Below, in pieces: positions 2,810-48,905 of a DNA stretch of 64,000 nucleotides. Origin of the DNA: Cyanidioschyzon merolae. Its lineage: Eukaryota. Below the pieces are notes generated by a model. It was not told the origin of the DNA. It saw only the letters and a list, made by a program, of their open reading frames with translations, and made no database searches. Both the position numbers and the translations under genes were made by a program. The stretch lies in assembly GCA_000091205.1 (NCBI GenBank), contig AP006501.2; one strand, given 5' to 3'. Every line of letters begins with the position of its first letter. Within the stretch, counting starts at the first letter, position 1.

Positions 2810-4312
2810 TCACACGTCCAAAACATGAAGGTTACCGGTAACCACGCAGTTCTCGAGCCGAGACCCCGCCGGAATATCAATAGACGCTCCCGGCTGGGCG
2901 ACAATGATGACCGTACCGCTCAGTTTGCAGCGTTTGCCGAAGCGCACACTGCCACTGACAGTTAATGACTCTAATTCTAAAATATCCGGCATACTCTCGA
3001 AACGGCTACTAAAGTCGCTCACTTTTTTGAATTCTGGACCCAACCGAATGACTGGCGTGCCGAGTTCAGCCGGACGCTCCGGATTCATACTAACATACCC
3101 CGAGACGATATTATAGAGATTACTTTGAATCAAGAGCAGATCGGATGTTGTCTTGACGGGCAGGAAACGGCTCCGTGGAACGTTAATACCCATGACGCGC
3201 TGGAAATGGGTAATGGCAGCACCCATAGCCGTCTCGAGCTGCAGCACGGTTTCGCCTTTCACAGTCTTCGTGTTGGGGATAATATCCAGCTCCATGGAGC
3301 CAGGTCCTCTGTCCATGATTCGCTTGAGCGCCTTGAGTTGGATCCACAAACTATTGGTATTGAATACTCGGAATTTGGATATGTTCTGGAAATCTCCCAA
3401 GTGCTCCTTATCGACCTGCGCGACTTCTAGCAACCTCGGCTTGCCTTGGTACGTGATCAGCGTGCCTCCTTTCCGATCGGAGCGAGTTCTCGTTGCCATT
3501 TCGATTGTAAATTCAACCTGATGATCCGCGATTGCTTTGAGAATCCGCGTATCCAAGGACGCTCCAAGGTTGTCACTGTTACTCACGAATATCCATTCCT
3601 TGCCCTCGGCGAGCAGCCGATCCAGCATGCCCGATTGCAGAAGCGCATCATACATGTCGCCGTGACCCGGCGGGTACCAGTCCTCCTTGTCGTACACTTC
3701 AGAGTCGAGGCACAGGGGTCGCAGTGTGTCGCGCACCAGACGCGGATACCTAGACTGCTGAAACGTACGAATCGGAATGAGATCCTCGTACTTTCGAATG
3801 ACTTTCAGTGTATCCGCATCCGTGTTAAAACTATTCATTAGGAGAAGAGGCACCTTGATTTGATACCGCTTGTTGATGGACTCGATCTGCTTCACGATAA
3901 TGTCCAAAAACGTCTGTCCCGAGCGGATTTCGATCACGGACTTGGGGCCCGAGCACCCCATCGAGGTGCCGAGGCCTCCGTTCAGCTTCAGTACAGCGAC
4001 GCGGCTTAGAAGCGCTCGCGCCTCAGTTTCGTTCGGTTCGGGTAGTTCTGCGTAGGGTCGCAATAGCTCCGCCGATGGCGGCTGGATCTGGTCCCAATCC
4101 AGTGCCGCGGACGCACTGGAGCGCGTCTCCAGGTACCGACCCAACAGGTGCACAAAACCCTGTTGTTCTGCTTCGCTCATGCGTGCACGTACGTCAGTCG
4201 CCCTTTCATTGATTTGACGTATTTCCTCCAACAGTGCCTTCTCCAGAGACTTGTCTGTGAGGTGAGCGAAGTTCGCAAAAGAGGCATCGTGGCTGGTTCG
4301 CACCAAAGGCAT
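2810..4312 (-). CDS. UTP--glucose-1-phosphate uridylyltransferase (UDP-glucose pyrophosphorylase), 500 aa, single exon
   Basis: UGPase signature LKLNGGLGTSMGCSGPKSVIEIR and overall UGP-family collinearity over 500 aa. Confidence 0.85.
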   Translation of the reverse strand: MPLVRTSHDASFANFAHLTDKSLEKALLEEIRQINERATDVRARMSEAEQQGFVHLLGRYLETRSSASAALDWDQIQPPSAELLRPYAELPEPNETEARALLSRVAVLKLNGGLGTSMGCSGPKSVIEIRSGQTFLDIIVKQIESINKRYQIKVPLLLMNSFNTDADTLKVIRKYEDLIPIRTFQQSRYPRLVRDTLRPLCLDSEVYDKEDWYPPGHGDMYDALLQSGMLDRLLAEGKEWIFVSNSDNLGASLDTRILKAIADHQVEFTIEMATRTRSDRKGGTLITYQGKPRLLEVAQVDKEHLGDFQNISKFRVFNTNSLWIQLKALKRIMDRGPGSMELDIIPNTKTVKGETVLQLETAMGAAITHFQRVMGINVPRSRFLPVKTTSDLLLIQSNLYNIVSGYVSMNPERPAELGTPVIRLGPEFKKVSDFSSRFESMPDILELESLTVSGSVRFGKRCKLSGTVIIVAQPGASIDIPAGSRLENCVVTGNLHVLDV

Positions 4313-5634
4313 CGTGTTCGGGTAAGAGTGTGGACACCGCTCCAGAGCTCTTCACTCGTTTCAAGCACGCACGACGCTCAAGTAAGTAGACTTGTCTTGA
4401 CCTTGCTTCAAATTAGAGCAGTAAGTCACCAGTAACGAGCTTGCTGGTGCCGTTCACAGTGATACCACCTACTTGAACAACGAAGAACACGTGTGAAGTC
4501 TCCGTCGTCGCCTGCTATTTACCCGGCGCGTGGCGCATTGCGCGCATTATTGCCACACGAGCGCCTTTGGATCGCCGCGCATTCGCTGGCTGCCTGCCTG
4601 CCTGCGTCGCAGCGAATGCCGACACGTATACGCGCCGTACGCAGGCACGCACGTAGACCACACATCGCGCGGCGCCCGAGCGGATCGCCCGCCAGCTGGA
4701 GCGCGCGTTGATCCGCTGAATGCTGGAGCGCGCGCTAAGCGTACCCCGAGCACACCAGTGAACGAGACGTCCATTTCATGTCCGGAACGAGAACGTCACG
4801 TCGTTCTGTCTGCGCTGTGCAGGGCACTGATCGTCGCGGCGAACGGCTGGGATACAAACGAGACATCCACAGTCGTTGAGCGGATGGAATCTCGGACGCC
4901 CGGCTTGCAGACTGATCAGGCGCACGCGGAACGGCAGATTCACTGTGAATGTGCTGTAGGCTTTTGTTTGATTCGCGGGAACATGCATGCATGCATCCAG
5001 GGCATCTCCCTTGGAACACGGACGCTAGACCAAGAACAATCGTAGGCGGGTGCATGCGTGCGCAGTGGCAGCACGCATGGTGCATTGCATGCGTGCATGC
5101 ATTTCCCGCGCAAACGCCTGGAGCCGGGGCATGCCAGCGCTGCGCTCATAGACGCGTTCCGTACAAAGCAGCGCGCTTCAGGGCACTGCACGCTCTCCGG
5201 GGTGCTCGTTGGGGTCATTCCGTCGCGGTATCCTGCTCTTCCCAGCGAGTAGCTGCCCAAAGTCGAATGCCTGCGTGACGTCTACGTGAGTTTTCAGCGG
5301 CAGCGCGTCAGGTGACCTCGGAGCGCGCTGCCTCGAGGGTGCAACGGACAACTTGGCAAGAGGCGCCACTCGCGTCCGGTGCTCGCATCAACAGCTGGGT
5401 TGAAGCTTGAGCGGAGGCGTTTTTATAGCCGCGTAGACAAGAATCAGTGACAACAACACGTCGTTTAGGATGATGCGCGGCTGGCGTGTGTGCAGCCTAA
5501 AGGCGGGGCGTGCACGTTGCACGGGTGCCGGCACCCTCGTGGACGCTTCGATTGCACTCGGACGCGCTTGCTGGTAGCGGTAAGCGCGGACCGCTCCACG
5601 CCGACTTGCACGTTAGCTGGGTACGTGCGCAGCG

Positions 5635-8600
5635 CTACGGGTCAAAGCCCAGGGCCTTGCGATATGCAGCCTCCTCGCGCCAGGTGAGGCGATCACGGAC
5701 CCAGTCGCCGCTGGAAGTGCGACGTCGATATCTCGGACGATTTGTCCCGCCGCCGAAGATATCGACCAGGTCGCAGGTATGGACGCGGGGAAATATGGTG
5801 TCTGGATCGACACGCGTTTGCTCGATTAATGCTCCATAGAGACGATGGCTCCGCGCCCATTCCGGTATGAGGTGCCGCTTAGCAGCGGGCACCGCAGCGC
5901 TCTCATCATCCGAGGCATCCGCCGAGTGGTGTCGCTCCGGAGTCAGCGGGTACTCCGCGGGAGCCTCGTCCGCGGCGGCAGCAGCAGCAGCAGCAGCAGC
6001 GGCAGCAGCTATCTGGGACGCTGGCTTTGTCCCATGCGACTTGAGCAGACCACTCGCTACGACCTGTTGTTGACGGAGCGGCGCAAGACGTGCCTGCTGG
6101 CGCTCGGTCTCCAGTGCGAGCCTTCTTTGATGCTCCAAAATGCGGCGTCGTTTCTCCTCGCGCCGTTGGCGGTATGCGTCCTGGACATCGAGGGGCGCCT
6201 CTGCATCCACGGGAGCTTGCCTTGGAGATGGATTCCCGTTGAGATCGACCAGGGGCTTCACTGCTGTGCGCGAAGGCGTCGCTGAGACAGGCGTAAGCGA
6301 CGTCGTGTCCACTGCTGTGGGTTGTTTCAGCGAAGCTGGGACGCAGTTCGGCGAGGCGCGCTGATCCATCCGACTCTTGAGCGTCTCGGGGCTGGGCGAA
6401 GCCCCGCGCACGCGCTTGCTCGATTGAGGCATTGTGGCTATGACGATCCGGTAACGAGACGGGCTGCTCCTTGCGTGCCCCAGCGTTGCCCATGCTTTGT
6501 TTGGTGACGGTTTCAGCACCGAATTTGTGCCGGTGGCTTGCAGCTCAGTGGCGTTCTGCAGCGGTTCTACTTGCATGCGCGCTGGTGAATGCGTCTGACG
6601 AGTGGAAACCGCTCCAGCGGAAATTGTAGCGGATGCGGTGGCGACGGCAGCGTTCCCCGGCAGACCATAGCCGCTGACATCCTGCTCCAGCGGAGGCGAT
6701 GGCGCAGCTCTCGACGTGGAGCGCCCGGTGCGATGGCGATCCTCGCACATTTCGTGCTGGACCGTCGAGCTTCGGTCGCCGGCAGCTCCCACAGCTTCGA
6801 TCCGACTGGGACTGGGGCACACCGGGAGCGCTCCAGCACGCATCGCGCGCAACCGCTCGATGCGCGTGCGCAGGGCCTCGGTTCTCGAGAGCCTGCTAGA
6901 AACACCGCCAGGAGCACCGCCAGGTCCCGGCTGGCGCTCACCACCAGGCGCAGCTGCAGCGTAGAGGGTATGGTGCGGCATGGGCGTTCCACTGGCGTGC
7001 GCTGGTGGCATGATCGTTTCGTCTACCGCTGCGGGAGCGCGCTTCGGGTCTGCAAGTCGCAGTGCGTGAGCGTCGTAGCCGTCGTATGCGACGCTGGTTG
7101 ACGCTGCCGGCGCCCTACGAACGGAAAGCAGCATCTCCGTCGCAGTTTGCGAGCGCTCGAGCGCATGGAACGACCCGTCTATCGCGTTCGTGGCGTCAGA
7201 TGGACTGCGCGATCGTGAGCGTCTCGCTTGCTGGTCACTTGCACCAGCTGCACTCAATGGCGAGCGAGGACGGCTGGGCCTCGCTAGTTTGGCGTTGGCA
7301 GTCGTCGCCTGGCCGGAATCCGGTACCAGCGACGCTGCCGCTGCCGCTGCCGCTGCTGATGGCGCTAGTTCGACCGGCGCCGCGCAGCTCGGCATCGCTA
7401 CCGAACTGGAGTCGCTCGCCACAGCGGGTTGCTGTGCCGCGTCCGCCGCGCAGTCCGGGTTCCCGACTCGCCCATTCGCTGCATCCTGGCCACATGACCC
7501 AGCTCGGATCGCATCCGCGTTTTCCGCAAGTGCGCCGTTGTCGTCGCTCGGTACTGTGGCCAATTTTGGGTCGCATTCGAGCGTCTGTTCCAGTTGGAAA
7601 ATCTGGCCTTCAATGTCGGTCGCATTCACGAACGAGCCGGGGCCGGATGCGGTTGGCGAAGCGCAGCGCGCGCGATAAACCTGTTCTGGGCTCGCAACCG
7701 AGTCGATTGGCGCCATCGCGAACGCGGCAACTGGCCGATGCGCTGGCGCAGGTGACGCGGACCCACGGCCCGGGTGCATTGTATGCCGCCCGGGGCTCAG
7801 TGAAGCCGAACGCTCGCGTGTACCCTTCATCTGCGCTTGAGATGCCGTCACGCCCTCCATTGTGTAGGCGCTGTTCTCGGGCAGAGCGCTGGACGTGCCC
7901 AGCTGGCGCATCGCCGCCGACGCTTGCGCATCAACAGCCGAAGCTTCCGTGGTAGCATTGCCACTGGCACTCAGGGCATGCTGCGCTCGCGCGAAGGTTG
8001 GCAGCGGCAATGGCGTTATCGGCGCGACAGCTCCTCGATGCACAGACGATCGGCGTCGTGCCCGAACCGTCTCTGTGGCATTCTCCGTGGAAAACGATTC
8101 AGCATGGTCGCTCGGGTGGCATTCGGCGGCGAAGTCGCTGCAGGTGACGCTGCCGGCACGCTGGGCGCCATTCGTCAAGGCCATCATTGTGCGGATCGCC
8201 TCTGGCGCCGCAACCTTTTGGGGTTCGTTGTATTCGAGCTGTGCGCTGTTCCGCTCTGGATCCACTAACGACCGCCGCATTGGCGGTGATTGCGAAAGCA
8301 TTGCGGAGCTACGTCGATTCGGTGCTGTTCGATGCACCGGAGACGATAGATGCGATGCCGGGGTACGCAGTGAGCGCTCCTTGGTCTGGGAGCACGCTGC
8401 CGGTGTTCGGGGCAGGGCCTCATCGCCCGCTTCGGCAGCGTTCATCCGCGGCGAATGCCCTGAAGCGTTATCAAAAGCTGGGCGCGTTGCGAGAGACCCT
8501 GGAGTATGCCACTCGTTGCCAGCAGGGGCCTGTAGCGAAGCCTGAACACCCCTGATGGTCTCTGTGGCAACGTCTTGGCCGGGATTTGTCACAGTGCAAT

Positions 8601-11600
8601 GTGTGCGACTGTTCGCATCGATAGTGACTGATGCGCGCGACATCATCTGGCTCGGCGACATGGTGCCTGACCCTGAGCGATGCTTACGAATCGAGTCAGA
8701 TGGCACATTAGCCGCAAAGCGCGTCTCCTGCAAAGACGCTGCACGGCGTCTGCTGGACATCGATGGCGATACACCGGTTTTTGGTGTCGGCGCTGGCGAC
8801 GCCCTTATCGACATTCGTTGCCATCGCGCTCTATCTGCGATATTCTCGGTGACGTTTTGGAGGCTGGACCGCGGAGCTGCACCACCCCCAGACGCTGCTC
8901 TGGATTCGGCTGGGATTTCGCAACTGCTCGCCACGGTCCCGGTGACTTGCTCGAGCGATGACCTCACTCCTGGACACCGTTCACCCACATCTGGTGCCAT
9001 TCCATCGACGTCGTTCTCGGATGGGGCGTGTTGCGGACTAAAGCGCAGCGCGGCAGGCAACTGACCCTGAATGCACCAAGAGAGAGGGTTCAGTGGTGAA
9101 TCAGCAGCGCTGGGCGATGGCGACTGCGCTGCTGCAGGCTGTTCAGCGGCAGGTGCGGGCATCGATTCGCAGCGAAACGCAGATGACGGATCAGTAGCCA
9201 GAGGTATGCTCGCGGCCTCCGTGCGCATAGCTGTGTCCTCGTCCGCGATGCCATTATCATGCGGTTGTCGCGGTGATGGCGGCGAGACGTCCCCGAGCAC
9301 CAACGAGCGCGTCGGAAGATGCTTGGGGCAGGGACTGCATGCCTCGACTGCTGCCCCGCTGGATGGAATATCGCCGCGCGGCGGCGTCCATTGCCTGTGA
9401 TGCATATCGCTTGGCGGCGTTTCCGACACTGCTGCAGCTTTTTGCGATACGAACGATGATCCGTGAACAGCTAGCCTGGCGCTTTCGACCCGAGGCGTCG
9501 TTGGCGTCGTACTGGGCCCAGGCAGGCGCAGCGCATCGGCCGCTGCGGCTCCAGAGGGATCCACAGATGTCGATTCCGCGGGCGCGAAATTTTCGCCTTG
9601 CGGGTCGCTCAGGGCCGCGGGCGAAGCTGCCAATGCTGCAGCTGGACAAGCACTGGATGTCCCTGAGCCATGTACGGGGTCTGAAGCGGCCTCCGCAGGG
9701 TCCTGCTTCACCAAAGCCGCCGCCGCCGCCGCCGCCGCCAAATCGATACGGGCTTGGCTCGTCGACGGTCGACGTTCTGGATGCGACTCTGAATGTGCAG
9801 CAGATGTCGAGGCCGGGTGATGCACATCGTACCGCGGCGAAGGCAGCGCTTTGCTGGCACTCCCTGCAGCCGATGCCGAATCGTCGGCTTGCGCGGACGT
9901 CCAGTTTGAATGAATCTCTCCAGCAGTGGACGGCTCTATGGGCACCGGCTCCTGCTCGGTTGCTGCTTGCTTCTGATGTATTCCAGCTGACGCATGGGGC
10001 GCATCCGCCGCTCCGTTTCGTGTTCGAATGATGCACGGGCTCGTGAACGAAACGTTGTGCGCATCGCGAATTTGCACTCGAGTCTGAAGCCCTGGCAGGG
10101 CTCCATTGAGACTTTCCGATATTGCCACCGGAAGCGAGGGACGCGATCGATTGCATAGGCGGGCGCTTTTTTCAGGCAGCGAAGCGCTTCGCCTGTTATT
10201 CGCGCCTCGGCCCTGATCCGGTGATATGGTGTCTGGAGCCCTCGATGTTGCGCGCCGAGCACCATGCATCGACTGCTGCCGCTCCGCTCGTTTCGACGAC
10301 GCTGTTCTTGGCGATGCCATGCCTCTGGATACCGGCGGTAGGGACGTGTTCTGCAGAGCGTCTTGGGGACGGCGCCGACGCCGTCGTGTTCGGGTCGGCA
10401 TTCGCTCGGGACTAGCGGGCGCTAGGCGCTTGATTACCGACGACTCCCGCGCTGCTTTGTCCGCACCAGAGCGTGACCTGGACGGCGGCGCCTGCCGTTG
10501 ACGGCGTCTCGGCATTGGCGCTCGCGGTGCTCGTCGCGTTTGCTCTGGAGTGCTCTGGCCCAGCGATATGTTCGTCATGGGCGTCATTCTGCTCGTGTTG
10601 GGTTGGTCGACAGCTGCGCTCAGGTTAGGAGCGCTTGGCGCGCACTTTTCGCAGAACCAATCCTTCTGGGGCACCTGGTCCAGCGGCGGCCTACAGCAGT
10701 ACGTGTGGAAACAGTCATCGCATCGATCACATAGAAGCATCAGATGGGGGTCCTCCATGCCCTTGCATCGTCGGCAGTACGTCTCGTCCTTGTGCGGGGT
10801 TCGATTCTCCGCCTTGGCCCGTGAGAACGGCGACAGTAGCTCTAGGGCCAATGCCCGCGCACGATCTGCAGTGCTTTGCTGATGCCGTCGAGCAGTCGCA
10901 CGGGGTGCTCGTGTGGCGAGGTCGTTCGCGTGCGTCTCAGACGATGGCGCTACTCGAGCCAGACCAGAATCTCGCCGTTTTTTCGGTCGCAACGGTACAG
11001 CGGATGCACCTGAGTCTGCCTCTGCTCCATCAGCGGCACATGTGGAAGAGGGTCGTGAGAAGCGCGCGCTTCCAACGCGCTGCACGGGCGACGCGCGGGC
11101 ACCATGTAAGGCCGGTGCTGCTGCATTTAGCACCGCATCGCGCTTAGGTGAAACGGGTTGCGCTTCCTGCTCAGATGCGTGCTGTGGCGGAGCACGCTTT
11201 CGTTGCACGCGTGACCTTTTGGTGGCTTGCGAGGTGCGACCGGCTGTCTCTCTCGTTGATCGCCCGCAGGCGATACTGAGCGCATCCGTTTCCGCTGGTG
11301 CTGCCCTTTCGGCTGCCTGTATCGAGGGTGACCGGTGAGAGCGGCGGTCTTGGCGCTGTGCGCGCTCTCTTATGCCTCGTCGCTGGTTCGTTTGACGCTG
11401 CCCTGCGTTGGAGGCAGGCGATCCAAGCGGCGACTCTGGCGGTGCAGGTGTGCGCTGCTGTTCTCGGGTGCCAGCGTAACGCTCCGATGGAATGTTGGGG
11501 CGCTCGTCTTGCATGAGCTGTTGATCATTGTTCTCGTCGTGGAACGCGAACTGATCGGATTCTGCTGCAGCGGCACGTTCCAACGATGACGACGACGGCA

Positions 11601-12336
11601 GTGGCGACTGGGCGCCAGACCTGATCGGGTCTGGCTCTTTTCGTGGCGCGTTCAGTACGACCGGTATCTGGGAATTTTGTCTAGAGTCATTGGTTTTGCG
11701 CTCGTGTAGTGCAGTGAGACGACGGCGTCGGCGCGCGCGAGCGTCCAGCATCATGCTCTTTCGCGATGCCGCGGGCGGCCGCACAAGGCCTACGAGCGAA
11801 TGCCGCGGGTCCCAGGTCTTCCATCCCTGGCCGGGTGGCCTCGTGCCCGGTGCGACTGACTCGCACATGCTTGAGATGCTGTGGCTTTCAGCACGACGGA
11901 AGAGCGAGCCGTGTGAGCTGGTGTCTCGACAATCGTCGGACGGAGCAGCAATTGAGGGTGTTTCGCGACTTGGACCTCGACAGCCATCGGATGATTCACT
12001 TGCTGGCAAATGATATGACGCCGCTACCTTGAAGCGTTGCGGTTCTGCTGGCGATGCAGCGGCACTGGCGACGTTGTTCGTGTCGGGCATTGTGGTGTTC
12101 CCCAGCGAGTCAATGGCGTGATCAAGCGCGCTTCTTGCCGCCGCCGCCGCCGCCTCGTGACTGCTAGTCGGAATCTCTGGCAACCTTGTCGCACACGCGC
12201 GAATCGTCCGTTGGAACCGAACGATTTGTGCTTCATATTCGCCCAGTAGAACAGCCTGCTGTTGCTCTGCAATGTAGTGGAGCGCATGAATGGCGTCCAA
12301 AACTGTCCGCTTTCGAAAAGCGTCGCGCGTAGACAT
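5635..12336 (-). CDS. Very large (2233 aa) low-complexity protein with an internal PHD finger and a C-terminal coiled-coil plus INCENP IN-box (Aurora-B-binding); an INCENP-like chromosomal passenger protein
   Basis: PHD C4HC3 spacing is seen in CRRCKGMEDPHLMLLCDRCDDCFHTYCCRPPLDQVPQKDWFCEKC. A charged single-helix region (RQRREEKRRRILEHQRRLALETERQQARLAPLRQQQ) lies just upstream of the IN-box. The C-terminus LIPEWARSHRLYGALIEQTRVDPDTIFPRVHTCDLVDIFGGGTNRPRYRRRTSSGDW matches the IN-box pattern IP.WA...L..A...Q...D.D..F....L...F......RY..RTSS..W. Poly-Ala and poly-Gln tracts come from the (GCA)n run at 5974-6009. Confidence 0.65.
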   Translation of the reverse strand: MSTRDAFRKRTVLDAIHALHYIAEQQQAVLLGEYEAQIVRFQRTIRACATRLPEIPTSSHEAAAAAARSALDHAIDSLGNTTMPDTNNVASAAASPAEPQRFKVAASYHLPASESSDGCRGPSRETPSIAAPSDDCRDTSSHGSLFRRAESHSISSMCESVAPGTRPPGQGWKTWDPRHSLVGLVRPPAASRKSMMLDARARRRRRLTALHERKTNDSRQNSQIPVVLNAPRKEPDPIRSGAQSPLPSSSSLERAAAAESDQFAFHDENNDQQLMQDERPNIPSERYAGTREQQRTPAPPESPLGSPASNAGQRQTNQRRGIRERAQRQDRRSHRSPSIQAAERAAPAETDALSIACGRSTRETAGRTSQATKRSRVQRKRAPPQHASEQEAQPVSPKRDAVLNAAAPALHGARASPVQRVGSARFSRPSSTCAADGAEADSGASAVPLRPKKRRDSGLARVAPSSETHANDLATRAPRATARRHQQSTADRARALALELLSPFSRAKAENRTPHKDETYCRRCKGMEDPHLMLLCDRCDDCFHTYCCRPPLDQVPQKDWFCEKCAPSAPNLSAAVDQPNTSRMTPMTNISLGQSTPEQTRRAPRAPMPRRRQRQAPPSRSRSGADKAARESSVIKRLAPASPERMPTRTRRRRRRPQDALQNTSLPPVSRGMASPRTASSKRAERQQSMHGARRATSRAPDTISPDQGRGANNRRSASLPEKSARLCNRSRPSLPVAISESLNGALPGLQTRVQIRDAHNVSFTSPCIIRTRNGAADAPHASAGIHQKQAATEQEPVPIEPSTAGEIHSNWTSAQADDSASAAGSASKALPSPRYDVHHPASTSAAHSESHPERRPSTSQARIDLAAAAAAAALVKQDPAEAASDPVHGSGTSSACPAAALAASPAALSDPQGENFAPAESTSVDPSGAAAADALRLPGPSTTPTTPRVESARLAVHGSSFVSQKAAAVSETPPSDMHHRQWTPPRGDIPSSGAAVEACSPCPKHLPTRSLVLGDVSPPSPRQPHDNGIADEDTAMRTEAASIPLATDPSSAFRCESMPAPAAEQPAAAQSPSPSAADSPLNPLSWCIQGQLPAALRFSPQHAPSENDVDGMAPDVGERCPGVRSSLEQVTGTVASSCEIPAESRAASGGGAAPRSSLQNVTENIADRARWQRMSIRASPAPTPKTGVSPSMSSRRRAASLQETRFAANVPSDSIRKHRSGSGTMSPSQMMSRASVTIDANSRTHCTVTNPGQDVATETIRGVQASLQAPAGNEWHTPGSLATRPAFDNASGHSPRMNAAEAGDEALPRTPAACSQTKERSLRTPASHLSSPVHRTAPNRRSSAMLSQSPPMRRSLVDPERNSAQLEYNEPQKVAAPEAIRTMMALTNGAQRAGSVTCSDFAAECHPSDHAESFSTENATETVRARRRSSVHRGAVAPITPLPLPTFARAQHALSASGNATTEASAVDAQASAAMRQLGTSSALPENSAYTMEGVTASQAQMKGTRERSASLSPGRHTMHPGRGSASPAPAHRPVAAFAMAPIDSVASPEQVYRARCASPTASGPGSFVNATDIEGQIFQLEQTLECDPKLATVPSDDNGALAENADAIRAGSCGQDAANGRVGNPDCAADAAQQPAVASDSSSVAMPSCAAPVELAPSAAAAAAAASLVPDSGQATTANAKLARPSRPRSPLSAAGASDQQARRSRSRSPSDATNAIDGSFHALERSQTATEMLLSVRRAPAASTSVAYDGYDAHALRLADPKRAPAAVDETIMPPAHASGTPMPHHTLYAAAAPGGERQPGPGGAPGGVSSRLSRTEALRTRIERLRAMRAGALPVCPSPSRIEAVGAAGDRSSTVQHEMCEDRHRTGRSTSRAAPSPPLEQDVSGYGLPGNAAVATASATISAGAVSTRQTHSPARMQVEPLQNATELQATGTNSVLKPSPNKAWATLGHARSSPSRYRIVIATMPQSSKRVRGASPSPETLKSRMDQRASPNCVPASLKQPTAVDTTSLTPVSATPSRTAVKPLVDLNGNPSPRQAPVDAEAPLDVQDAYRQRREEKRRRILEHQRRLALETERQQARLAPLRQQQVVASGLLKSHGTKPASQIAAAAAAAAAAAAADEAPAEYPLTPERHHSADASDDESAAVPAAKRHLIPEWARSHRLYGALIEQTRVDPDTIFPRVHTCDLVDIFGGGTNRPRYRRRTSSGDWVRDRLTWREEAAYRKALGFDP

Positions 12337-35401: not shown

Positions 35402-38400
35402 TTACAGATACAGACGAATTCGCGATGTGATGGTCACTCGACACATGGGACACTCCGAGAGTTGCTCTGCGCATGGTTGACAAGTACAGTGTCCACAATT
35501 GTAAACAGTCCATTGAACGCATGGACCAGAATCAGCACACACGGCACATTCAGGTTCCATGTGTGCTCGAGTGTTATCGGCTTCGATGCTATGCGTCGAA
35601 CGCATGATGTCGGACTCGTCTAGCACCAGAACGCTGTCTGCCGCGGAGCGTGAACTATCAAACGGTGCCGAAGGGGCAGCAGATATCTCGGAATAAATGT
35701 CGCTACTGCTGCTTGCCCTCGAGTGGTGGAGGAGGCGGGAATCCTCGTCCTGGTCGGCACCTTCGGTATCCAGCGGTGGTGCACTTGCAGTTGCAGTAGA
35801 GCGCACCGGCCACCAGTCTCTGCTCAAGAGCCGGGGTAAAAACGCTGAACGTCGGTAGCTGGACGGCTGCGCACCGCTCTGGCGAAGCGACGTCGGCAAA
35901 AGCGTATCACCGTCGTCACCAGATAGCGCCGTCAGCTGGTTATCGAGCGATACCTCATTCGCGGCGGCAGGAGCGCAAATCGATGATGACGATGACGACG
36001 TCGACGGCGACAAGTGCTGGTGCGCAGCGCTTGCGGTTCTCGTGCTCGCCGAGGTGAGCACAGTCGCGGTGATACCATAACCATCAACACCACCACCAGT
36101 TACTTCCACATGAGATGATGTTTCCATCGAGTCGCCACCGCTCTGTGACGTGCTCGCGTTGGTGATTTGGGAGAACAGCGCACTGTTGTTGCTCGGCGGC
36201 GCAGGTGCGTCATCAGCAAGTTGTTGTTGCATCACAAGCGGATCGCTCTCAGCAGACCTGTTGTACCTGAATTCCACCATTGAGTCCCGATAAATCGGTG
36301 CTGTACTGAGCGAGGTCATGCTGGACCCTGTCGAGCTGGTGCCCCGCGCAGCCGACGGGGTGCGTTTGCGCAACAGCGGCGGCTGTGTGCTCGACGAGGT
36401 GCCTGCGTTAGCCTCGAACACGCCTTCGAACGTCCGATCCCCAAGATGAATGCTCCGCTCGTAGGCAAACGAGTTGCCGGTTTTCGTATCGGGCGTCGTC
36501 GCGTCCATGTTCTTGTACACATGAGAAGCCGATGCCGTCGGCTTCGACGTTTCTCCCGCTGAAACACCGTCGACGACGCCCATGCGAGCGCTGTATGCCG
36601 CGGCAAGTCGATGATTAGGTTCCCCAGCCAGCGCTGGAAATGCATTCTCGCAACCCGCTTGCCGGGCCTGACGCGTCCCCAACAACGAGGTCAGCACAAG
36701 GTGCGCCTGCGTCTGGCCGGTTTCGCGGGCGATATCCAGCGGGGTCGCCCCGCGGCTGTCGCGAGCGTATACCAGATCGCCTCGGGGAGCACCGAGCTCC
36801 ACAAGCGCCCGTAGCACGCTTTCCTGGGCGCCAGCTGCCGCTGCGACATGAAGTGGCGTCCGTCGGCGTCGATCACGAGCCCAGGGGTTGCTGCCTGCTC
36901 GTAGCAGCGCGAGGACAGTTGCGGCACCTGCATCCTGCTGCGCCAGCGCACAAGCGTAGTGCAGCGGCGTCTCGCCTCGGGTACCAAGGCCAATGGTGGC
37001 CGTTTCGAGCGCGAGCGCCCCTTGTTGACCGCCCCCAACAGCTTGTACAAACGCCTCGACGCCCTCGGCGTTTGCAAGCGCTGCAGCGGTATGCAGCGGC
37101 GTTCCGCCGTCAAGCTTGCGCCGGATATTCACATCAATACCCAGTGACACCAGACGACGAATGCAGACAACTGTGGCAAGGAAGTGACGATCCGGGCTCT
37201 CGTCGAGAACGCCGCTCAGCACTGCAAGTGAGCGGAGCTGCGCCTCGACAAGCGCCGCTCCAGGCGGCCGCACAAGGGCCGTGTTATTGGTGCTGGTATT
37301 GGTATTGGGATTGTTCGCGATGCTAGACTCCCACCAGCGCGTCGCCAGATGATGCATCAGTTTCCGCCCGATCACGAGGCGGCGCTGATCTTGAGGCAAG
37401 CGGGCTCCAAGCTGGAGAAGCCACAAGGCGAGGTCATAACGCTTTGCTGAAAACGCGATGGTTAGCGCAGTTTCACCGCTGTGGCTCGCCTGATCGATGA
37501 GCTTCGTTGGTGACAATGAAACCAGCAGGTTGCAGATGTCGGCGCGATTGCAGGTCGCTGCTGTATGCAGAGCGGTACGACCGGCACAGTCTTGCTGGAA
37601 CGGTGAGACGCCCGCCTCGGTCACGAGCCATAAAACGATGTCCGAATGCCCATACCGAGCAGCAACGTGCAGCACAGACGTGCCGTCGTGACGCGCGATG
37701 CTAGGCTTCGTCTTGCCCTCTTCGACCAGGAGACGCAACGCGACGAGGTGGCCAAACTTTGCCGCTGCATGCAGGGGCGTCCATCCTTCACCATTTGCGG
37801 CGCTTGGATCAGCACCATGCTGTAAAAGAAGTCGAATCATCTCGATGGAACCCTGCTCAGCAGCAATGTGCAACGGCGTCCATCCGCGGCGGGCACGAAC
37901 GTGTTGTGGACGGATTTTGCCCACTTCCAGAAGCAACCCGACAATCCCCAGCTGGTTTCCAGACACCGCAACCATGAGCGGCGTCCAGTCGTTGTGGTCA
38001 CGAGCGCGCGGGTCCGCGCCCGCTGCAAGCAGCATCCGACAGACCGCTTCGTGCCCGTTCCACGCCGCGATAAACAGCGGCGTCCAGCCGATGCTCGTGC
38101 GGCAGTTCACATCGGGCGGCGGTGCCGACTGATTGCGCTGCTCTGGGGAACGATATCGCAGCATCGCACGCAAGGTCGCAATGTGATCATTTTGCGCTGC
38201 TAAATAGAGTGCCGACGGGATGGCTCTTTCGCTTTCATCGAGCGTTGTGCTGGGTACGTCTCCTCTGCGCACTAGGCTAGGAATCATGCCAGACCTTCGC
38301 GAATTGTCGGTCGGCCCCGTCGTCACAGCGAGCTCTTTCCAAGCACCGAACTCGAGCAGCAGCTCCACAGCAAGCGTGTTACCGAAATATGCTGCCTGCT

Positions 38401-38935
38401 TGAGCGCGGTCCAGCCCGTCCTGGCTTTGTCTGCGCCCGGTTCGTTTCGATCCCATTCTCTGGTGAACGCTTCTAGGTTATCTCGAATCCAGCTGCGCAG
38501 CTCGGCGGCATCGGCAGGGCTGCTCGCTCGCTGCAATAAACCAGTCCAGCGGGGCGGTGCTTTGAGGGCGCTGCCCTCACCAGATGAAGGTTTGCGCAAG
38601 TCGTCACATGTCGAGGAGTGTTCCGCATCAGCAGCGTCATTCCTGCCATTTGAAGAGGCTCTATGCACGCCCTCGACCCGCAGACGTTGATCTTCACGTG
38701 TCTGGCGCCAGTTCGAAGGCTGCTGCGTCCGATCTGGTTGGGTTCGGTGCCACCAACGGAGACCCTGCGTGCGAAGAGGCTCCGCCCGCGAGTCCCGTCT
38801 CAGCGTTCCAGCACGCGGTCTTCGCGAGAGACCCTGCTCGGTGCGAGGCACCTCGGAGTCCGCTTCGTCTGTTGGCGCAAGAAGCTCGCGCCAGCGCAAA
38901 CAACGAAACATGGCCGGCGACGTGTCAAAGGTCAA
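35402..38935 (-). CDS. Ankyrin-repeat protein with a C-terminal C3HC4 RING finger (XBAT-like E3 ubiquitin ligase), 1177 aa
   Basis: More than 15 ankyrin repeats (G.TPLH.AA..GH...V..LL..GA motifs repeated). The C-terminal ECAVCADSGPCVQWTVYNCGHCTCQPCAEQLSECPMCR is a RING. Confidence 0.75.
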   Translation of the reverse strand: MTFDTSPAMFRCLRWRELLAPTDEADSEVPRTEQGLSRRPRAGTLRRDSRAEPLRTQGLRWWHRTQPDRTQQPSNWRQTREDQRLRVEGVHRASSNGRNDAADAEHSSTCDDLRKPSSGEGSALKAPPRWTGLLQRASSPADAAELRSWIRDNLEAFTREWDRNEPGADKARTGWTALKQAAYFGNTLAVELLLEFGAWKELAVTTGPTDNSRRSGMIPSLVRRGDVPSTTLDESERAIPSALYLAAQNDHIATLRAMLRYRSPEQRNQSAPPPDVNCRTSIGWTPLFIAAWNGHEAVCRMLLAAGADPRARDHNDWTPLMVAVSGNQLGIVGLLLEVGKIRPQHVRARRGWTPLHIAAEQGSIEMIRLLLQHGADPSAANGEGWTPLHAAAKFGHLVALRLLVEEGKTKPSIARHDGTSVLHVAARYGHSDIVLWLVTEAGVSPFQQDCAGRTALHTAATCNRADICNLLVSLSPTKLIDQASHSGETALTIAFSAKRYDLALWLLQLGARLPQDQRRLVIGRKLMHHLATRWWESSIANNPNTNTSTNNTALVRPPGAALVEAQLRSLAVLSGVLDESPDRHFLATVVCIRRLVSLGIDVNIRRKLDGGTPLHTAAALANAEGVEAFVQAVGGGQQGALALETATIGLGTRGETPLHYACALAQQDAGAATVLALLRAGSNPWARDRRRRTPLHVAAAAGAQESVLRALVELGAPRGDLVYARDSRGATPLDIARETGQTQAHLVLTSLLGTRQARQAGCENAFPALAGEPNHRLAAAYSARMGVVDGVSAGETSKPTASASHVYKNMDATTPDTKTGNSFAYERSIHLGDRTFEGVFEANAGTSSSTQPPLLRKRTPSAARGTSSTGSSMTSLSTAPIYRDSMVEFRYNRSAESDPLVMQQQLADDAPAPPSNNSALFSQITNASTSQSGGDSMETSSHVEVTGGGVDGYGITATVLTSASTRTASAAHQHLSPSTSSSSSSICAPAAANEVSLDNQLTALSGDDGDTLLPTSLRQSGAQPSSYRRSAFLPRLLSRDWWPVRSTATASAPPLDTEGADQDEDSRLLHHSRASSSSDIYSEISAAPSAPFDSSRSAADSVLVLDESDIMRSTHSIEADNTRAHMEPECAVCADSGPCVQWTVYNCGHCTCQPCAEQLSECPMCRVTITSRIRLYL

Positions 38936-47087: not shown

Positions 47088-48905
47088 TTGCAGCACAGTC
47101 GAGCTTGCAGGACGGAAACTAGACCAGAGTTGCCTCCAAGTGAGTCGCGCCCTACTGGCCGGGCTGCAACTGCTTGTCCGCCGTTCACAGCTCGCAGGTT
47201 CGCTGCGGCTATGAACGCAGAGGACGGACCCAGAAGAGCGCCGTTGCCCGGGACTCCAGGTGGCGTCGCTCGAGAGCCCAGCGGGTCAGCTGCACTGTCG
47301 TTCCAACTGGCGTCGCTGCCGATGGGGTCACGAGGCGCCGGAGTAGCTCCTCCGCAGCCGCCACCACAGCAGCCCTGGGCCGTGCCCAAGCATCAGGAGA
47401 GCTTTGTGCCGTCTGGGGAGTACGTGTCGGCGGGGGTACCGTTTTGGGCGGCGATACCGCCGGAGCCCCCAATGGCGGGCTCCCTCACCTGGTGGGCTCC
47501 GGACGCATCAACCGCCACAGCGCCTCCCTTCGCGTTAAGAACTGGAGCCTACGCGAACTTGCAGGGCTATCCGGTGCCGTCAGTTGCCGTCGAACCGGCG
47601 GGGTGGTACTGGCCACCGCCACCGCCCCCGCCACCGCCACCGCCACCGCCTCTGTCTGAGGCTGGCTTTCCGGGCGGAGCGCCAGACTGGGAAGAAGAAG
47701 AACGCCGAGTCGTCGCGTTTGCTTTGCTCGGTCTGCGTGACGGCGCAGCAGTGAGCACGGAGCTAGCATGGACGGCTGCTGCACTTTTGCCTCGCAGCGC
47801 CTACTCGTCGACCAGGATGCAGCACCGCCAGAGTCGCCGGCGCCTTCGCGAAGCGCAGCGCCTTTATCGCGGCGATGCCCCGCTTTTTGGTGTACCTTAT
47901 GGCCTACCTGGTGTCTTCTGGCATGCATCAGCTCCAGACGCGTCCGACACGGCTGCGGATGACCACGGCATCGACGACGCGGATGGCAACGCAGCAGCTA
48001 CGGAAACACGCAAATGCCCCGCACCCGCCGAAACTGCACAGCTCAAAATACTCTGGCGGGAGGAGGCCAATCGACGAACGATGCCAGGCCGTGGCTTTCT
48101 CACGGTATTTCGGATCCTCGGCGGACAGGGAGAGTTTCTGCGGCTCTTTGAAGATATCCCCGATTGGGCCGTAACCGACGAGGCGCCTGGATCACGAGAT
48201 GTGAGCGAACCTCCCGAACCCGACGAACGCGATACGTACCCGGTACCCGAGGCGGGTGTGCCGCCACCGCCAGTGCCCAAGTCTGGCGCTGGCGGGCGGC
48301 GTCGGGTGCCAAACCCGGCACCCTCGGGAACAGCGCCAGCGGCCGTCCGCGGCCGTGGCGGCAACCTAGAGCGACTCCTGGGGCCTGGCACCGATGTTGC
48401 TTTCCGAGTCAAAGACGAAGAAGGCGAGTGGAACTGGATCCTAGGCACTGTTTGCAGTTATCTGCCAGAGGAACGGAAGTACCGCATTGCGGACCGAGGC
48501 GAAGAGATGGTCGAGGCATTCGAGCAGCGCGGTGAGGAGCTGAGCCAGCCAAAGCACCGCCTGGACAGCGGCAAGTATCGGCTTTATCAGGTTGCCCGTT
48601 CTCGCGTTCGTCCGCTACCATCTGCGGCAGCCGCCAATCTCCGCCTTCGCCCATCGATGAAAGTGCTGGCCCTGTATCCAGGGACAAGTGCGCTCTATCC
48701 AGCAACGGTCGTGGAGTCAGCAGAAACGGTTATGCAGGAAACAGATGCTCCCCACGGCATGGCATACAAGCTTATTTTCGAAAATGAGGACGAAGAAGAG
48801 GGATCTGAGAGCGAGCATTCTGGCGAAGAGCTGGGATCTAGGGATCTCATGGAGGCTGTTCCCTACAAGTACGTGCATGCGCGTTTTGTTCTACCACTGC
48901 TTTGA
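47088..48905 (+). CDS. SGF29: SAGA-associated factor 29 (SGF29)-like protein with a C-terminal tandem Tudor domain, 605 aa. The N-terminus is Pro-rich and its start is uncertain
   Basis: The first Tudor is DVAFRVKDEEGEWNWILGTVCSYLPEERKYRIADRGEE. The second is MKVLALYPGTSALYPATVVE...YKLIFENEDEEE...VPYKYV, matching the SGF29 pattern VLALYP.TT.FY.A.V. Confidence 0.65.
   Translation: MQHSRACRTETRPELPPSESRPTGRAATACPPFTARRFAAAMNAEDGPRRAPLPGTPGGVAREPSGSAALSFQLASLPMGSRGAGVAPPQPPPQQPWAVPKHQESFVPSGEYVSAGVPFWAAIPPEPPMAGSLTWWAPDASTATAPPFALRTGAYANLQGYPVPSVAVEPAGWYWPPPPPPPPPPPPPLSEAGFPGGAPDWEEEERRVVAFALLGLRDGAAVSTELAWTAAALLPRSAYSSTRMQHRQSRRRLREAQRLYRGDAPLFGVPYGLPGVFWHASAPDASDTAADDHGIDDADGNAAATETRKCPAPAETAQLKILWREEANRRTMPGRGFLTVFRILGGQGEFLRLFEDIPDWAVTDEAPGSRDVSEPPEPDERDTYPVPEAGVPPPPVPKSGAGGRRRVPNPAPSGTAPAAVRGRGGNLERLLGPGTDVAFRVKDEEGEWNWILGTVCSYLPEERKYRIADRGEEMVEAFEQRGEELSQPKHRLDSGKYRLYQVARSRVRPLPSAAAANLRLRPSMKVLALYPGTSALYPATVVESAETVMQETDAPHGMAYKLIFENEDEEEGSESEHSGEELGSRDLMEAVPYKYVHARFVLPLL

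What the first reader, a model, noticed from the sequence alone, without database searches (positions are those of the whole stretch)
5635..12336. Giant INCENP-like chromosomal-passenger protein that also carries a PHD finger
The 2233-aa product ends in a textbook IN-box, including the RTSS Aurora-B phosphorylation site (RYRRRTSSGDW), preceded by a charged single-alpha-helix segment. This is the defining architecture of INCENP. About 700 residues earlier it has a canonical C4HC3 PHD finger (CRRCKG..CDRCDDCFHTYC..CEKC). PHD fingers are histone-tail readers and are not part of canonical INCENPs, which use an N-terminal Survivin/Borealin-binding helix for centromere targeting. A PHD-containing INCENP would suggest a direct histone-mark-reading route for CPC localisation in this lineage. 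Much of the rest is low-complexity Ala/Ser/Pro-rich sequence.
Basis: partly seen in the sequence, partly recalled or inferred. Interest (0 to 1): 0.5.

Follow-up and report, generated by a model that had tools for sequence, protein, structure and literature searches.

The report
Red-algal INCENP carrying a PHD finger
This gene encodes the scaffold protein that activates the cell-division kinase Aurora. In one ancient group of hot-spring red algae it has picked up a histone-tail-reading PHD finger, which may explain how the complex finds chromosomes where its usual histone reader is missing.

Summary
Window 5635-12336 (-) is one uninterrupted 2233-codon ORF. It has a Pfam-significant C-terminal IN-box (aa 2140-2194, RRTSS at 2205-2209) and a C4HC3 PHD finger (aa 521-565).

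It is one gene, not two. The frame stays open in five independent same-species assemblies, in a divergent sister species (L006) and in Galdieria partita. The split Cyanidiococcus model is explained by assembly frameshifts, one of them inside the IN-box.

Among 50 long IN-box proteins from across eukaryotes, only the cyanidiophyte one has a PHD. The red algae Porphyridium and Rhodosorus lack it. The fusion is therefore a conserved, cyanidiophyte-specific INCENP variant.

The PHD is closest to fingers I know as readers of the unmodified H3 N-terminus (BAZ2A/B, KDM5 PHD1, UHRF1, ATXR5, CHD4). Komaki et al. 2022 report that red-algal Survivin homologues are helix-only, with no reader domain. My inference, untested, is that the PHD gives the chromosomal passenger complex its direct H3-tail contact. 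I found no paper describing this.

Verdict: new variant of a known kind, moderate interest.

The parts
5635..12336 (-). Complete intron-less gene encoding the 2233-aa PHD-INCENP (stop codon included)
   Evidence: Same ORF in L007, L008/L011, L010, L012 and in L006.
12172..12336 (-). N-terminal amphipathic helix, aa 1-55. Candidate Borealin/Survivin-binding (CEN-box-like) helix.
   Evidence: 48-55% identical to the Cyanidiococcus and L006 sequences over the first 60 aa. Aligns in register with the N-termini of other INCENPs: hhalign P=0.0047, probability 7.5%. No Pfam INCENP_N hit.
11692..11817 (-). Conserved basic motif, aa 174-215: TWDPRHSLVGLVRPPAASRKSMML.ARARRRRRLTALHERK. Function unknown; possibly an NLS or a nucleosome/DNA contact.
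   Evidence: Near-identical in Cyanidiococcus and L006, not recognisable in Galdieria.
10639..10854 (-). Conserved pre-PHD extension (LELLSPFSRAKAE.RTP.KDETY) plus C4HC3 PHD finger, aa 495-566 (Pfam PHD 521-565).
   Evidence: No non-synonymous polymorphism. Conserved in Galdieria.
10579..10602 (-). PNTSR[MI]TP motif just after the PHD, aa 579-586.
   Evidence: Shared with Cyanidiococcus and L006.
6904..10578 (-). Long Ala/Ser/Pro/Arg-rich low-complexity linker, aa 587-1811, probably disordered. Enriched in [ST]P sites.
   Evidence: Composition and [ST]P counts: 60 in the whole protein against 38.5 expected. pN/pS 0.7-0.96 with only in-frame indels. Barely alignable with L006, yet open in both.
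6829..6903 (-). Conserved helix SRLSRTEALRTRIERLRAMRAG, aa 1812-1836.
   Evidence: Present in L006 and Cyanidiococcus. Similar motifs seen by eye in Galdieria (AAELRSKIQRLR) and Porphyridium (GDLRSKIAKLRS).
6490..6507 (-). SPNKAW motif, aa 1944-1949.
   Evidence: Shared with L006 and Cyanidiococcus.
6061..6192 (-). Short charged helix or coiled coil (QRREEKRRRILEHQRRLALETERQQARL), aa 2049-2092, in the position of the INCENP single alpha-helix.
   Evidence: R 22%, Q 16%, E 12%. Near-identical in L006 and Cyanidiococcus. The Galdieria equivalent is about 130 aa.
5638..5952 (-). Acidic stretch plus extended IN-box, aa 2129-2233 (Pfam 2140-2194). Includes the Aurora-contact W2160 and F2194, and the C-terminal DRLTWREEAAYRKALGF extension.
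   Evidence: 83% identical to Cyanidiococcus. pN/pS 0-0.07.
5710..5718 (-). TSS motif (T2207, S2208, S2209): the Aurora phosphorylation site of the IN-box.
   Evidence: Aligned to human RTSS in 4af3_D. The two serines (S2208, S2209) are nearly invariant in the 30-sequence IN-box alignment.

Best explanation
[quoted passage not shown] It is encoded by one intron-less gene.

Shown:
- The extreme C-terminus is a bona fide IN-box with the conserved W, F and TSS positions.
- A PHD finger sits in the N-terminal quarter.
- The two are joined in a single ORF that is kept across cyanidiophytes (Cyanidioschyzon-like, Cyanidiococcus-like, Galdieria).
- The PHD is absent from the INCENPs of other red algae and of green-lineage species sampled here.

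Inferred:
- The IN-box binds and activates the organism's single Aurora kinase, and Aurora phosphorylation of the TSS motif completes activation.
- The N-terminal helix joins the helices of Borealin and of the helix-only Survivin homologue.
- The PHD belongs to the cage-less subclass that reads the free, K4-unmethylated H3 N-terminus. It docks the complex directly on H3 tails.
- This gives the CPC the chromatin contact that BIR-Survivin (animals, fungi) or FHA-BORI (plants, stramenopiles) supplies elsewhere, and it places Aurora next to its substrate H3S10.
- The roughly 1,200-residue disordered, [ST]P-rich linker acts as a flexible, probably phospho-regulated tether.
For: Domains. All eight invariant IN-box columns are present. 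The exhaustive search found 989 IN-box homologues at E<=1e-3.

One gene:
- Frame statistics.
- Intact ORFs of 2228-2233 codons in the window, L007, L008/L011, L010 and L012, differing only by in-frame indels.
- An uninterrupted ORF with all modules in the divergent L006.
- Conserved synteny TauE-ABC1-CCT-gene-UDPGP.
- The Cyanidiococcus break inside the IN-box is a 1-nt indel flanked by mostly third-position substitutions.
- The Galdieria partita gene is bounded by neighbours 100-200 bp away, and one 699-codon exon runs from the PHD to the coil.

Selection: pN/pS is 0 for the PHD and 0-0.07 for the IN-box.

Lineage restriction:
- 1 of 50 long IN-box proteins has a PHD.
- Porphyridium and Rhodosorus INCENPs lack it.
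- Of 29 metagenomic PHD loci, only the 3 same-species loci have an IN-box.

PHD subclass: the best solved relatives are BAZ2B (3e-12), ATXR5, KDM5B/KDM5A PHD1, Lid, UHRF1/2 and CHD4. From my own knowledge these are H3K4me0 / H3-N-terminus readers. The sequence shows Cys (Ala in Galdieria) where K4me3 readers have the cage Trp before the zinc-ligand His. It also shows acidic E528/D529 before the LMLLCD strand.

Context: red-algal Survivin/BORI homologues are helix-only (PMC9680938). C. merolae has one Aurora kinase, on the spindle, and H3S10 is phosphorylated in M phase (PMC6925296).
Against: There is no experimental or transcript evidence.

The N-terminal helix is only weakly similar to other INCENP N-termini (hhalign probability 7.5%), and there is no Pfam INCENP_N hit.

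The AlphaFold model of the PHD region was low-confidence (pLDDT 60), and its fold search was uninformative.

From my own knowledge, PHD fingers of this subclass are generally repelled by H3T3 phosphorylation and bind a very common chromatin state. A PHD alone therefore does not explain mitosis-specific or centromere-specific targeting.

Whether cyanidiophytes have Haspin, Bub1 or Shugoshin could not be tested here.

I could not search the whole genome for a second IN-box protein.
Confidence: 0.6

Rival explanations
1. The PHD finger is real but is not a chromatin-localisation module. It binds a non-histone partner with an H3-like N-terminus or internal motif, or it folds back on the protein for autoregulation. 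CPC targeting would then rely on other subunits.
For: No binding data exist. The conserved pre-PHD extension (LSPFSRAKAE.RTP) is unusual and could form an extra interface. The PHD's predicted ligand state, unmodified H3, is not specific to centromeres or to mitosis.
Against: The closest solved relatives are all histone H3-tail binders. The strand-forming LLCD motif, the acidic residues and the P..DW loop are all conserved. In red algae the CPC otherwise lacks a recognisable reader domain.
Confidence: 0.2
2. The protein is a chromatin-resident Aurora activator and not a true CPC scaffold. The PHD tethers it to H3 so that Aurora phosphorylates H3S10/S28 for condensation. The N-terminal helix does not bind Borealin or Survivin.
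For: Homology of the N-terminal helix is weak. PHD binding of H3 residues 1-6 would place the kinase beside S10. C. merolae's single Aurora has many roles.
Against: The overall order is that of INCENP: N-terminal helix, long linker, charged helix, C-terminal IN-box. Only one IN-box cluster was seen per cyanidiophyte lineage among the top hits. The helix aligns in register with the INCENP N-terminus of another red alga, Rhodosorus, including a WL in Cyanidiococcus.
Confidence: 0.15
3. The 2233-codon ORF is two adjacent genes (a PHD protein and an INCENP) that happen to be in frame, or an assembly artefact.
For: Public gene models split it: Cyanidiococcus F1559_002421 stops at 1449 aa with the PHD only, and JGI models of 932 and 223 aa cover only the C-terminus. 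No RNA data are available.
Against: The truncated models are explained by assembly frameshifts, one of them inside the 83%-identical IN-box, by internal-Met choices and by short contigs. The ORF is intact in six independent assemblies from two species. The fusion recurs in Galdieria. The chance of 2233 open codons is negligible.
Confidence: 0.03

Closest known systems
INCENP / Sli15 / Pic1 / WYRD (CPC scaffold, Pfam PF03941 IN-box family)
   Same: C-terminal IN-box with the W, F and TSS positions. A charged helix precedes it, a long disordered middle lies upstream, and there is an N-terminal helix. The extended DRLTW.EE..YK..MGF tail is shared with non-metazoan INCENPs.
   Different: It carries a PHD finger plus a conserved pre-PHD extension. 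The charged helix is very short (about 40 aa). It is unusually long at 2233 aa. There is no Pfam INCENP_N match.
Survivin (BIR) and plant/stramenopile BORI (FHA): reader subunits of the CPC (Komaki et al. 2022, PMC9680938)
   Same: The proposed role is the same: a domain added to a CPC subunit that contacts the histone H3 N-terminus. Like BIR, the PHD is a small zinc-binding module that (own knowledge) recognises a free N-terminal Ala.
   Different: The domain sits on INCENP and not on Survivin. The fold is PHD, not BIR or FHA. The predicted ligand is unphosphorylated, K4-unmethylated H3 and not H3T3ph.
H3K4me0 / H3-N-terminus-reading PHD fingers (BAZ2A/B, KDM5A/B PHD1, UHRF1, ATXR5, CHD4 PHD2, AIRE, BHC80)
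   Same: Best sequence matches in the PDB, E from 3e-12 to 1e-6. C4HC3 spacing, the LLLCD.CD strand, upstream acidic residues, the VP..DW.C loop, and no cage Trp.
   Different: The host protein is a mitotic kinase scaffold, not a chromatin remodeller or modifier. It has an unusual HT[YF]CC signature and a conserved 25-residue N-terminal extension.
SAP-domain-containing INCENPs (8 of 50 long IN-box proteins)
   Same: Another case of an accessory nucleic-acid or chromatin-binding domain added to the N-terminal part of an INCENP.
   Different: The domain is SAP (DNA-binding) and not PHD. The lineage was not identified here.

Membership tests
INCENP (CPC scaffold) | IN-box (Aurora-binding region) matching the family profile above the curated threshold | tested here: met
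   PF03941: 42.5 bits against a cut-off of 22, E=6.3e-11. Human INCENP IN-box structures hit at E=5e-5. 989 homologues at E<=1e-3.
INCENP (CPC scaffold) | Conserved Aurora-contact Trp (IP.WA) and Phe (D.IF), and the TSS phosphorylation motif | tested here: met
   W2160, F2194 and T2207-S2208-S2209. The W and F columns are invariant and the two serine columns nearly invariant in the 30-sequence alignment A2. Aligned to the human residues.
INCENP (CPC scaffold) | IN-box at the extreme C-terminus, preceded by a charged helix (SAH or coiled coil) | tested here: met
   The IN-box ends 39 residues before the stop. The R/Q/E-rich helix at aa 2049-2092 is judged by composition only and is short. The Galdieria orthologue has a helix of about 130 aa.
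INCENP (CPC scaffold) | N-terminal helix that forms the three-helix bundle with Borealin and Survivin | tested here: inconclusive
   A conserved N-terminal helix exists. It aligns in register with other INCENP N-termini at P=0.0047, but hhalign probability is 7.5%. No PF12178 hit and no PDB sequence hit. The partner proteins were not available.
INCENP (CPC scaffold) | Physical binding and activation of Aurora kinase; passenger localisation (centromere to midzone) | not testable with these tools
   Needs biochemistry and imaging in C. merolae or Galdieria.
INCENP (CPC scaffold) | Sole or orthologous IN-box protein of the genome | not tested
   Only one IN-box cluster per cyanidiophyte lineage appeared among the 150 best hits. 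The whole genomes could not be searched.
PHD finger | C4HC3 zinc-ligand pattern with canonical spacing, matching the family profile above threshold | tested here: met
   PF00628: 37.2 bits against a cut-off of 24. 84 PDB PHD sequences at E<=0.01. The ligand positions are invariant in four cyanidiophyte sequences.
PHD finger, H3K4me0 / free H3 N-terminus reader subclass | No aromatic cage (no Trp before the zinc-ligand His), acidic residues before strand beta1, the LLCD.CD strand and the P..(D/G)W.C N-terminus pocket | tested here: met
   Read directly from the alignments with BAZ2B, ATXR5, KDM5B, Lid and UHRF2 and from A5. The meaning assigned to these positions comes from my own knowledge of the published PHD-H3 structures.
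PHD finger, H3K4me0 / free H3 N-terminus reader subclass | Measured binding to the unmodified H3 tail and sensitivity to K4me3, R2me and T3ph | not testable with these tools
   Needs peptide binding assays. The AF2 model was too poor to analyse.

The most novel reading that the evidence does not exclude
In cyanidiophyte red algae the CPC reads chromatin through a PHD finger on INCENP itself. This would be a fourth, independent acquisition of an H3-tail reader by the complex, but on a different subunit and with a different ligand logic: the unmodified H3 N-terminus and not Haspin-made H3T3ph. If so, CPC chromosome targeting in this lineage is wired independently of the Haspin-Survivin axis. T3 phosphorylation might even release the complex instead of recruiting it.
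Probability: 0.35. Interest if true: 0.65.

Novelty: new variant of a known kind. Interest (0 to 1): 0.5.

Why it matters
Komaki et al. 2022 showed that the CPC acquired phospho-histone readers on Survivin several times (BIR, and FHA twice). They left open how lineages with helix-only Survivin, red algae among them, attach the complex to chromatin.

A PHD finger conserved on INCENP throughout the cyanidiophytes is a concrete candidate answer. It extends the idea of differential domain acquisition to a second CPC subunit.

It is also directly testable. C. merolae has one Aurora kinase, almost no introns and efficient gene targeting, so PHD point mutants and tagged alleles are feasible.

In addition, the analysis corrects several truncated public gene models: Cyanidiococcus F1559_002421 and the JGI fragments.

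Tried and rejected
- Full-length search of the 5.8-billion-protein word index found only the truncated Cyanidiococcus model. An IN-box-only search found one unrelated metagenomic fragment.
- A profile search with a 30-sequence IN-box alignment returned only short fragments under about 200 aa and gave no architecture information.
- AlphaFold2 of the pre-PHD+PHD region from a 3-sequence alignment gave pLDDT 60. The Foldseek PDB search on it returned nothing at E<=0.001, so it was discarded. The PHD call rests on sequence.
- The N-terminal 230 aa have no PDB sequence match even at E<=10.
- Literature searches for Haspin in Cyanidioschyzon and for INCENP+PHD found nothing relevant.
- The metagenome scan with the PHD signature added no new cyanidiophyte species, only three more same-species contigs.
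- I considered and rejected pseudogenisation in Cyanidiococcus. The substitution pattern around the frameshift is dominated by third-position changes, and the IN-box is 83% identical.
- I considered and rejected the two-genes-in-frame reading (see the rival explanations).

Full report
**Observation**

Window 5635-12336 on the minus strand is a single ATG-to-stop ORF of 2233 codons.

- Pfam places INCENP_ARK-bind at aa 2140-2194: E=6.3e-11, 42.5 bits against a gathering score of 22.
- Pfam places a PHD finger at aa 521-565: E=3.1e-9, 37.2 bits against 24.
- The last 200 residues hit the human INCENP IN-box chains 4af3_D and 6gr8_B at E=5e-5. IPEWARS aligns to IPTWARG, and RPRYRRRTSS aligns to KPRYHKRTSS.
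- The eight PHD zinc ligands are C521, C524, C536, C539, H544, C547, C562 and C565.
- The protein is 17% Ala, 12% Ser, 10% Arg and 10% Pro.

The PHD lies about 1,600 residues upstream of the IN-box, not about 700. The charged helix in front of the IN-box is only about 40 residues long (aa 2049-2092).

**Is it one gene?**

In every 200-codon block the reading frame has no stop, while each of the other five frames has 0-9 (typically 2-8). In 200 shuffles of the gene the longest open run was 401 codons.

The only hit of the full-length protein in the 5.8-billion-protein index was Cyanidiococcus yangmingshanensis F1559_002421. That model is 1449 aa, has a PHD only, and is 37% identical over residues 1-690. 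On its face, this supports two genes.

Its locus (L001) shows otherwise. The 4.3 kb downstream of that model has no annotated gene. It carries the rest of the orthologue on the same strand, split over three frames. This includes an IN-box 83% identical to the window's. One break lies inside the IN-box. It is a single extra base, and the substitutions on both sides are mostly at third codon positions. These are therefore assembly indels, and the real gene spans about 6.64 kb, against 6.70 kb here.

The exhaustive HMMER search with the IN-box led to near-identical metagenomic proteins of 2229 and 2147 aa. Their contigs, plus three more found with the PHD signature, all carry the same ORF from the same Met to the same stop. 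They differ from the window by point changes and in-frame poly-Ala indels only.

A more divergent species on a 287 kb contig (L006) has an uninterrupted 2188-codon ORF containing every conserved module. The JGI gene caller had annotated only its last 223 residues.

Gene order (TauE, ABC1, CCT-motif protein, this gene, UDP-glucose pyrophosphorylase) is the same in the window, L001 and L006.

**Deeper conservation**

Galdieria partita GJQ13227.1 is 1131 aa and is named only "PHD-type domain-containing protein". It has a PHD at 208-252 and an IN-box at 1036-1088. It also shares these features:

- the pre-PHD motif (LSPYSRAIAQGRSPTKYETYC against LSPFSRAKAENRTPHKDETYC);
- the unusual HT[YF]CC signature;
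- an N-terminal helix;
- a helix of the form ELRSKIQRLR;
- a long charged helix.

Its gene is bounded by neighbours 100-200 bp away, and one 699-codon exon runs from within the PHD to the charged helix.

**Distribution outside the cyanidiophytes**

- A PHD regex over all 161 proteins held at that point found the motif only in the cyanidiophyte proteins.
- Pfam on 50 long IN-box proteins found the IN-box in 50, a PHD in 1 (Galdieria) and a SAP domain in 8.
- The INCENPs of the red algae Porphyridium purpureum and Rhodosorus marinus have no PHD. Neither do those of Mesostigma, Chara, a liverwort, a lycophyte and Auxenochlorella.

The fusion is therefore a conserved character of the cyanidiophyte lineage.

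**Source organism**

No tool names the window's organism. Its closest named relative in the searchable data is Cyanidiococcus, and the genes are intron-less. From my own knowledge this fits Cyanidioschyzon merolae or a close relative.

**Anatomy (alignment A4; coordinates)**

| Module | Residues |
|---|---|
| N-terminal helix | 1-55 |
| Basic motif WDPRHSLVGLVRPP...RRRRRL (clade-specific) | 174-215 |
| Pre-PHD extension plus PHD | 495-566 |
| PNTSRMTP | 579-586 |
| Ala/Ser/Pro/Arg-rich linker | 587-1811 |
| Helix SRTEALRTRIERLR | 1812-1836 |
| SPNKAW | 1944-1949 |
| Charged helix | 2049-2092 |
| Acidic stretch plus extended IN-box | 2129-2233 |

The whole protein has 60 [ST]P sites, against 38.5 expected from composition.

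Polymorphism against two metagenomic variants gives these pN/pS values:

- PHD region: 0;
- coil plus IN-box: 0-0.07;
- linker: 0.7-0.96.

The two domains are under strong constraint. The linker is constrained mainly to stay open.

**N-terminal helix**

Pfam INCENP_N does not hit, and no solved structure matches the first 230 residues by sequence.

Many full-length INCENPs nevertheless start with a helix of the pattern hydrophobic-xx-hydrophobic-xx-L, followed by polar residues and then W-L. The cyanidiophyte helix fits this pattern, and Cyanidiococcus even has the WL.

hhalign aligns the two profiles in register over 36 columns, with P=0.0047 but a calibrated probability of only 7.5%. I treat this as suggestive and not proven.

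**PHD subclass**

The best solved relatives are BAZ2B (3e-12), ATXR5, KDM5B PHD1, Lid, UHRF2/UHRF1, KDM5A PHD1, CHD4, BAZ2A, and further down AIRE and BHC80/PHF21A. From my own knowledge, all of these bind the H3 N-terminus with K4 unmethylated.

The sequence shows directly:

- Cys (Ala in Galdieria) at the position just before the zinc-ligand His, where K4me3 readers have the cage Trp;
- acidic residues E528/D529 before the LMLLCD strand;
- the VP..DW.C loop.

An AlphaFold model from three sequences was too poor to use (pLDDT 60), and its fold search was empty.

**Mechanism**

Shown: this is an IN-box protein with INCENP topology plus a conserved PHD, encoded by one gene.

Inferred from the family:

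- The IN-box wraps around and activates Aurora. C. merolae has a single Aurora kinase, CmAUR, which sits on the spindle and phosphorylates H3S10 in vitro; H3S10 is phosphorylated in M phase in vivo (PMC6925296).
- Phosphorylation of the TSS motif completes activation.
- The N-terminal helix bundles with Borealin and Survivin-type helices.

Komaki et al. 2022 found that Survivin/BORI proteins gained a BIR or FHA phospho-H3T3 reader independently in several supergroups. They also found that Rhodophyta have short, helix-only homologues (PMC9680938).

I therefore propose that in cyanidiophytes the PHD on INCENP supplies the H3-tail contact of the complex and places Aurora next to H3S10.

The weak point is specificity. 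Unmodified H3 tails are everywhere, and this PHD subclass is usually repelled by T3 phosphorylation (my own knowledge). Centromere and mitosis specificity would therefore need other inputs. I could not determine whether these algae have Haspin, Bub1 or Shugoshin.

**Novelty**

None of my searches of PubMed Central and bioRxiv (INCENP with "PHD finger", with PHD and Galdieria, or with Cyanidioschyzon) turned up a description of a PHD-bearing INCENP. Automatic pipelines do already record both Pfam domains on the metagenomic proteins.

This is a new variant of a known kind: a known scaffold with a lineage-specific reader domain. It is of moderate interest because it bears directly on an open question in CPC evolution and can be tested in C. 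merolae.

Noticed in passing
L001 14350-16641 (Cyanidiococcus yangmingshanensis VWRR01000018.1): The public gene model F1559_002421 (1449 aa, 'PHD-type domain-containing protein') is truncated. The C-terminal third of the gene, including the IN-box, lies unannotated downstream across at least three frame breaks that look like assembly indels.
   Followed up: yes
L005 423-3221; L006 10001-10672: The JGI metagenome gene calls for this gene (932 aa and 223 aa) start at internal Met codons. In L006 the full ORF (4106-10672) is open upstream of the called gene; L005 is only a 3.7 kb contig and was not checked upstream.
   Followed up: yes
Alignment A3 (50 long IN-box proteins), e.g. P0017, P0023, P0049, P0062, P0076, P0078: Eight of 50 long INCENP-type proteins carry a SAP domain, N-terminal in the example sequences. 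This is another accessory DNA/chromatin-binding domain on INCENP. The lineage was not identified.
   Followed up: partly
window 6829-6903 (-), aa 1812-1836: The helix SR[TA]E.LR[TS][RK]I[EQ][RK]LR, about 300 residues before the IN-box, is conserved in L006 and Cyanidiococcus. Similar motifs are seen by eye in Galdieria (AAELRSKIQRLR), Porphyridium (GDLRSKIAKLRS) and an unnamed protein, P0005. Function unknown.
   Followed up: partly
window 11692-11817 (-), aa 174-215: The motif WDPRHSL[VL]GLV[RQ]PP.ASRKS.ML.ARARRRRRLTAL is almost invariant in the Cyanidioschyzon/Cyanidiococcus clade but not recognisable in Galdieria. It could be an NLS or an arginine-anchor nucleosome contact.
   Followed up: no
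window 47088-48905 (+): Encodes a protein with an SGF29 tudor-like domain (Pfam E=5e-16). From my own knowledge this is the H3K4me2/3 reader of SAGA. It suggests that H3K4 methylation is in use in this organism, which matters for a K4me0-selective PHD.
   Followed up: no
P0008 (Porphyridium purpureum KAA8492377.1), around aa 750: By eye, the Porphyridium INCENP has a C2H2-like motif (CIVTDCAKSYSSHYTLRRHIKEKH). No zinc-finger family appeared in the Pfam scan at E<=1e-3.
   Followed up: no
window 35402-38935 (-): Large ankyrin-repeat protein with a C-terminal RING finger (zf-C3HC4_3). The other neighbours are ordinary housekeeping genes: MFS transporter, TRM1, TPS/TPP, PP2C and DDAH.
   Followed up: no
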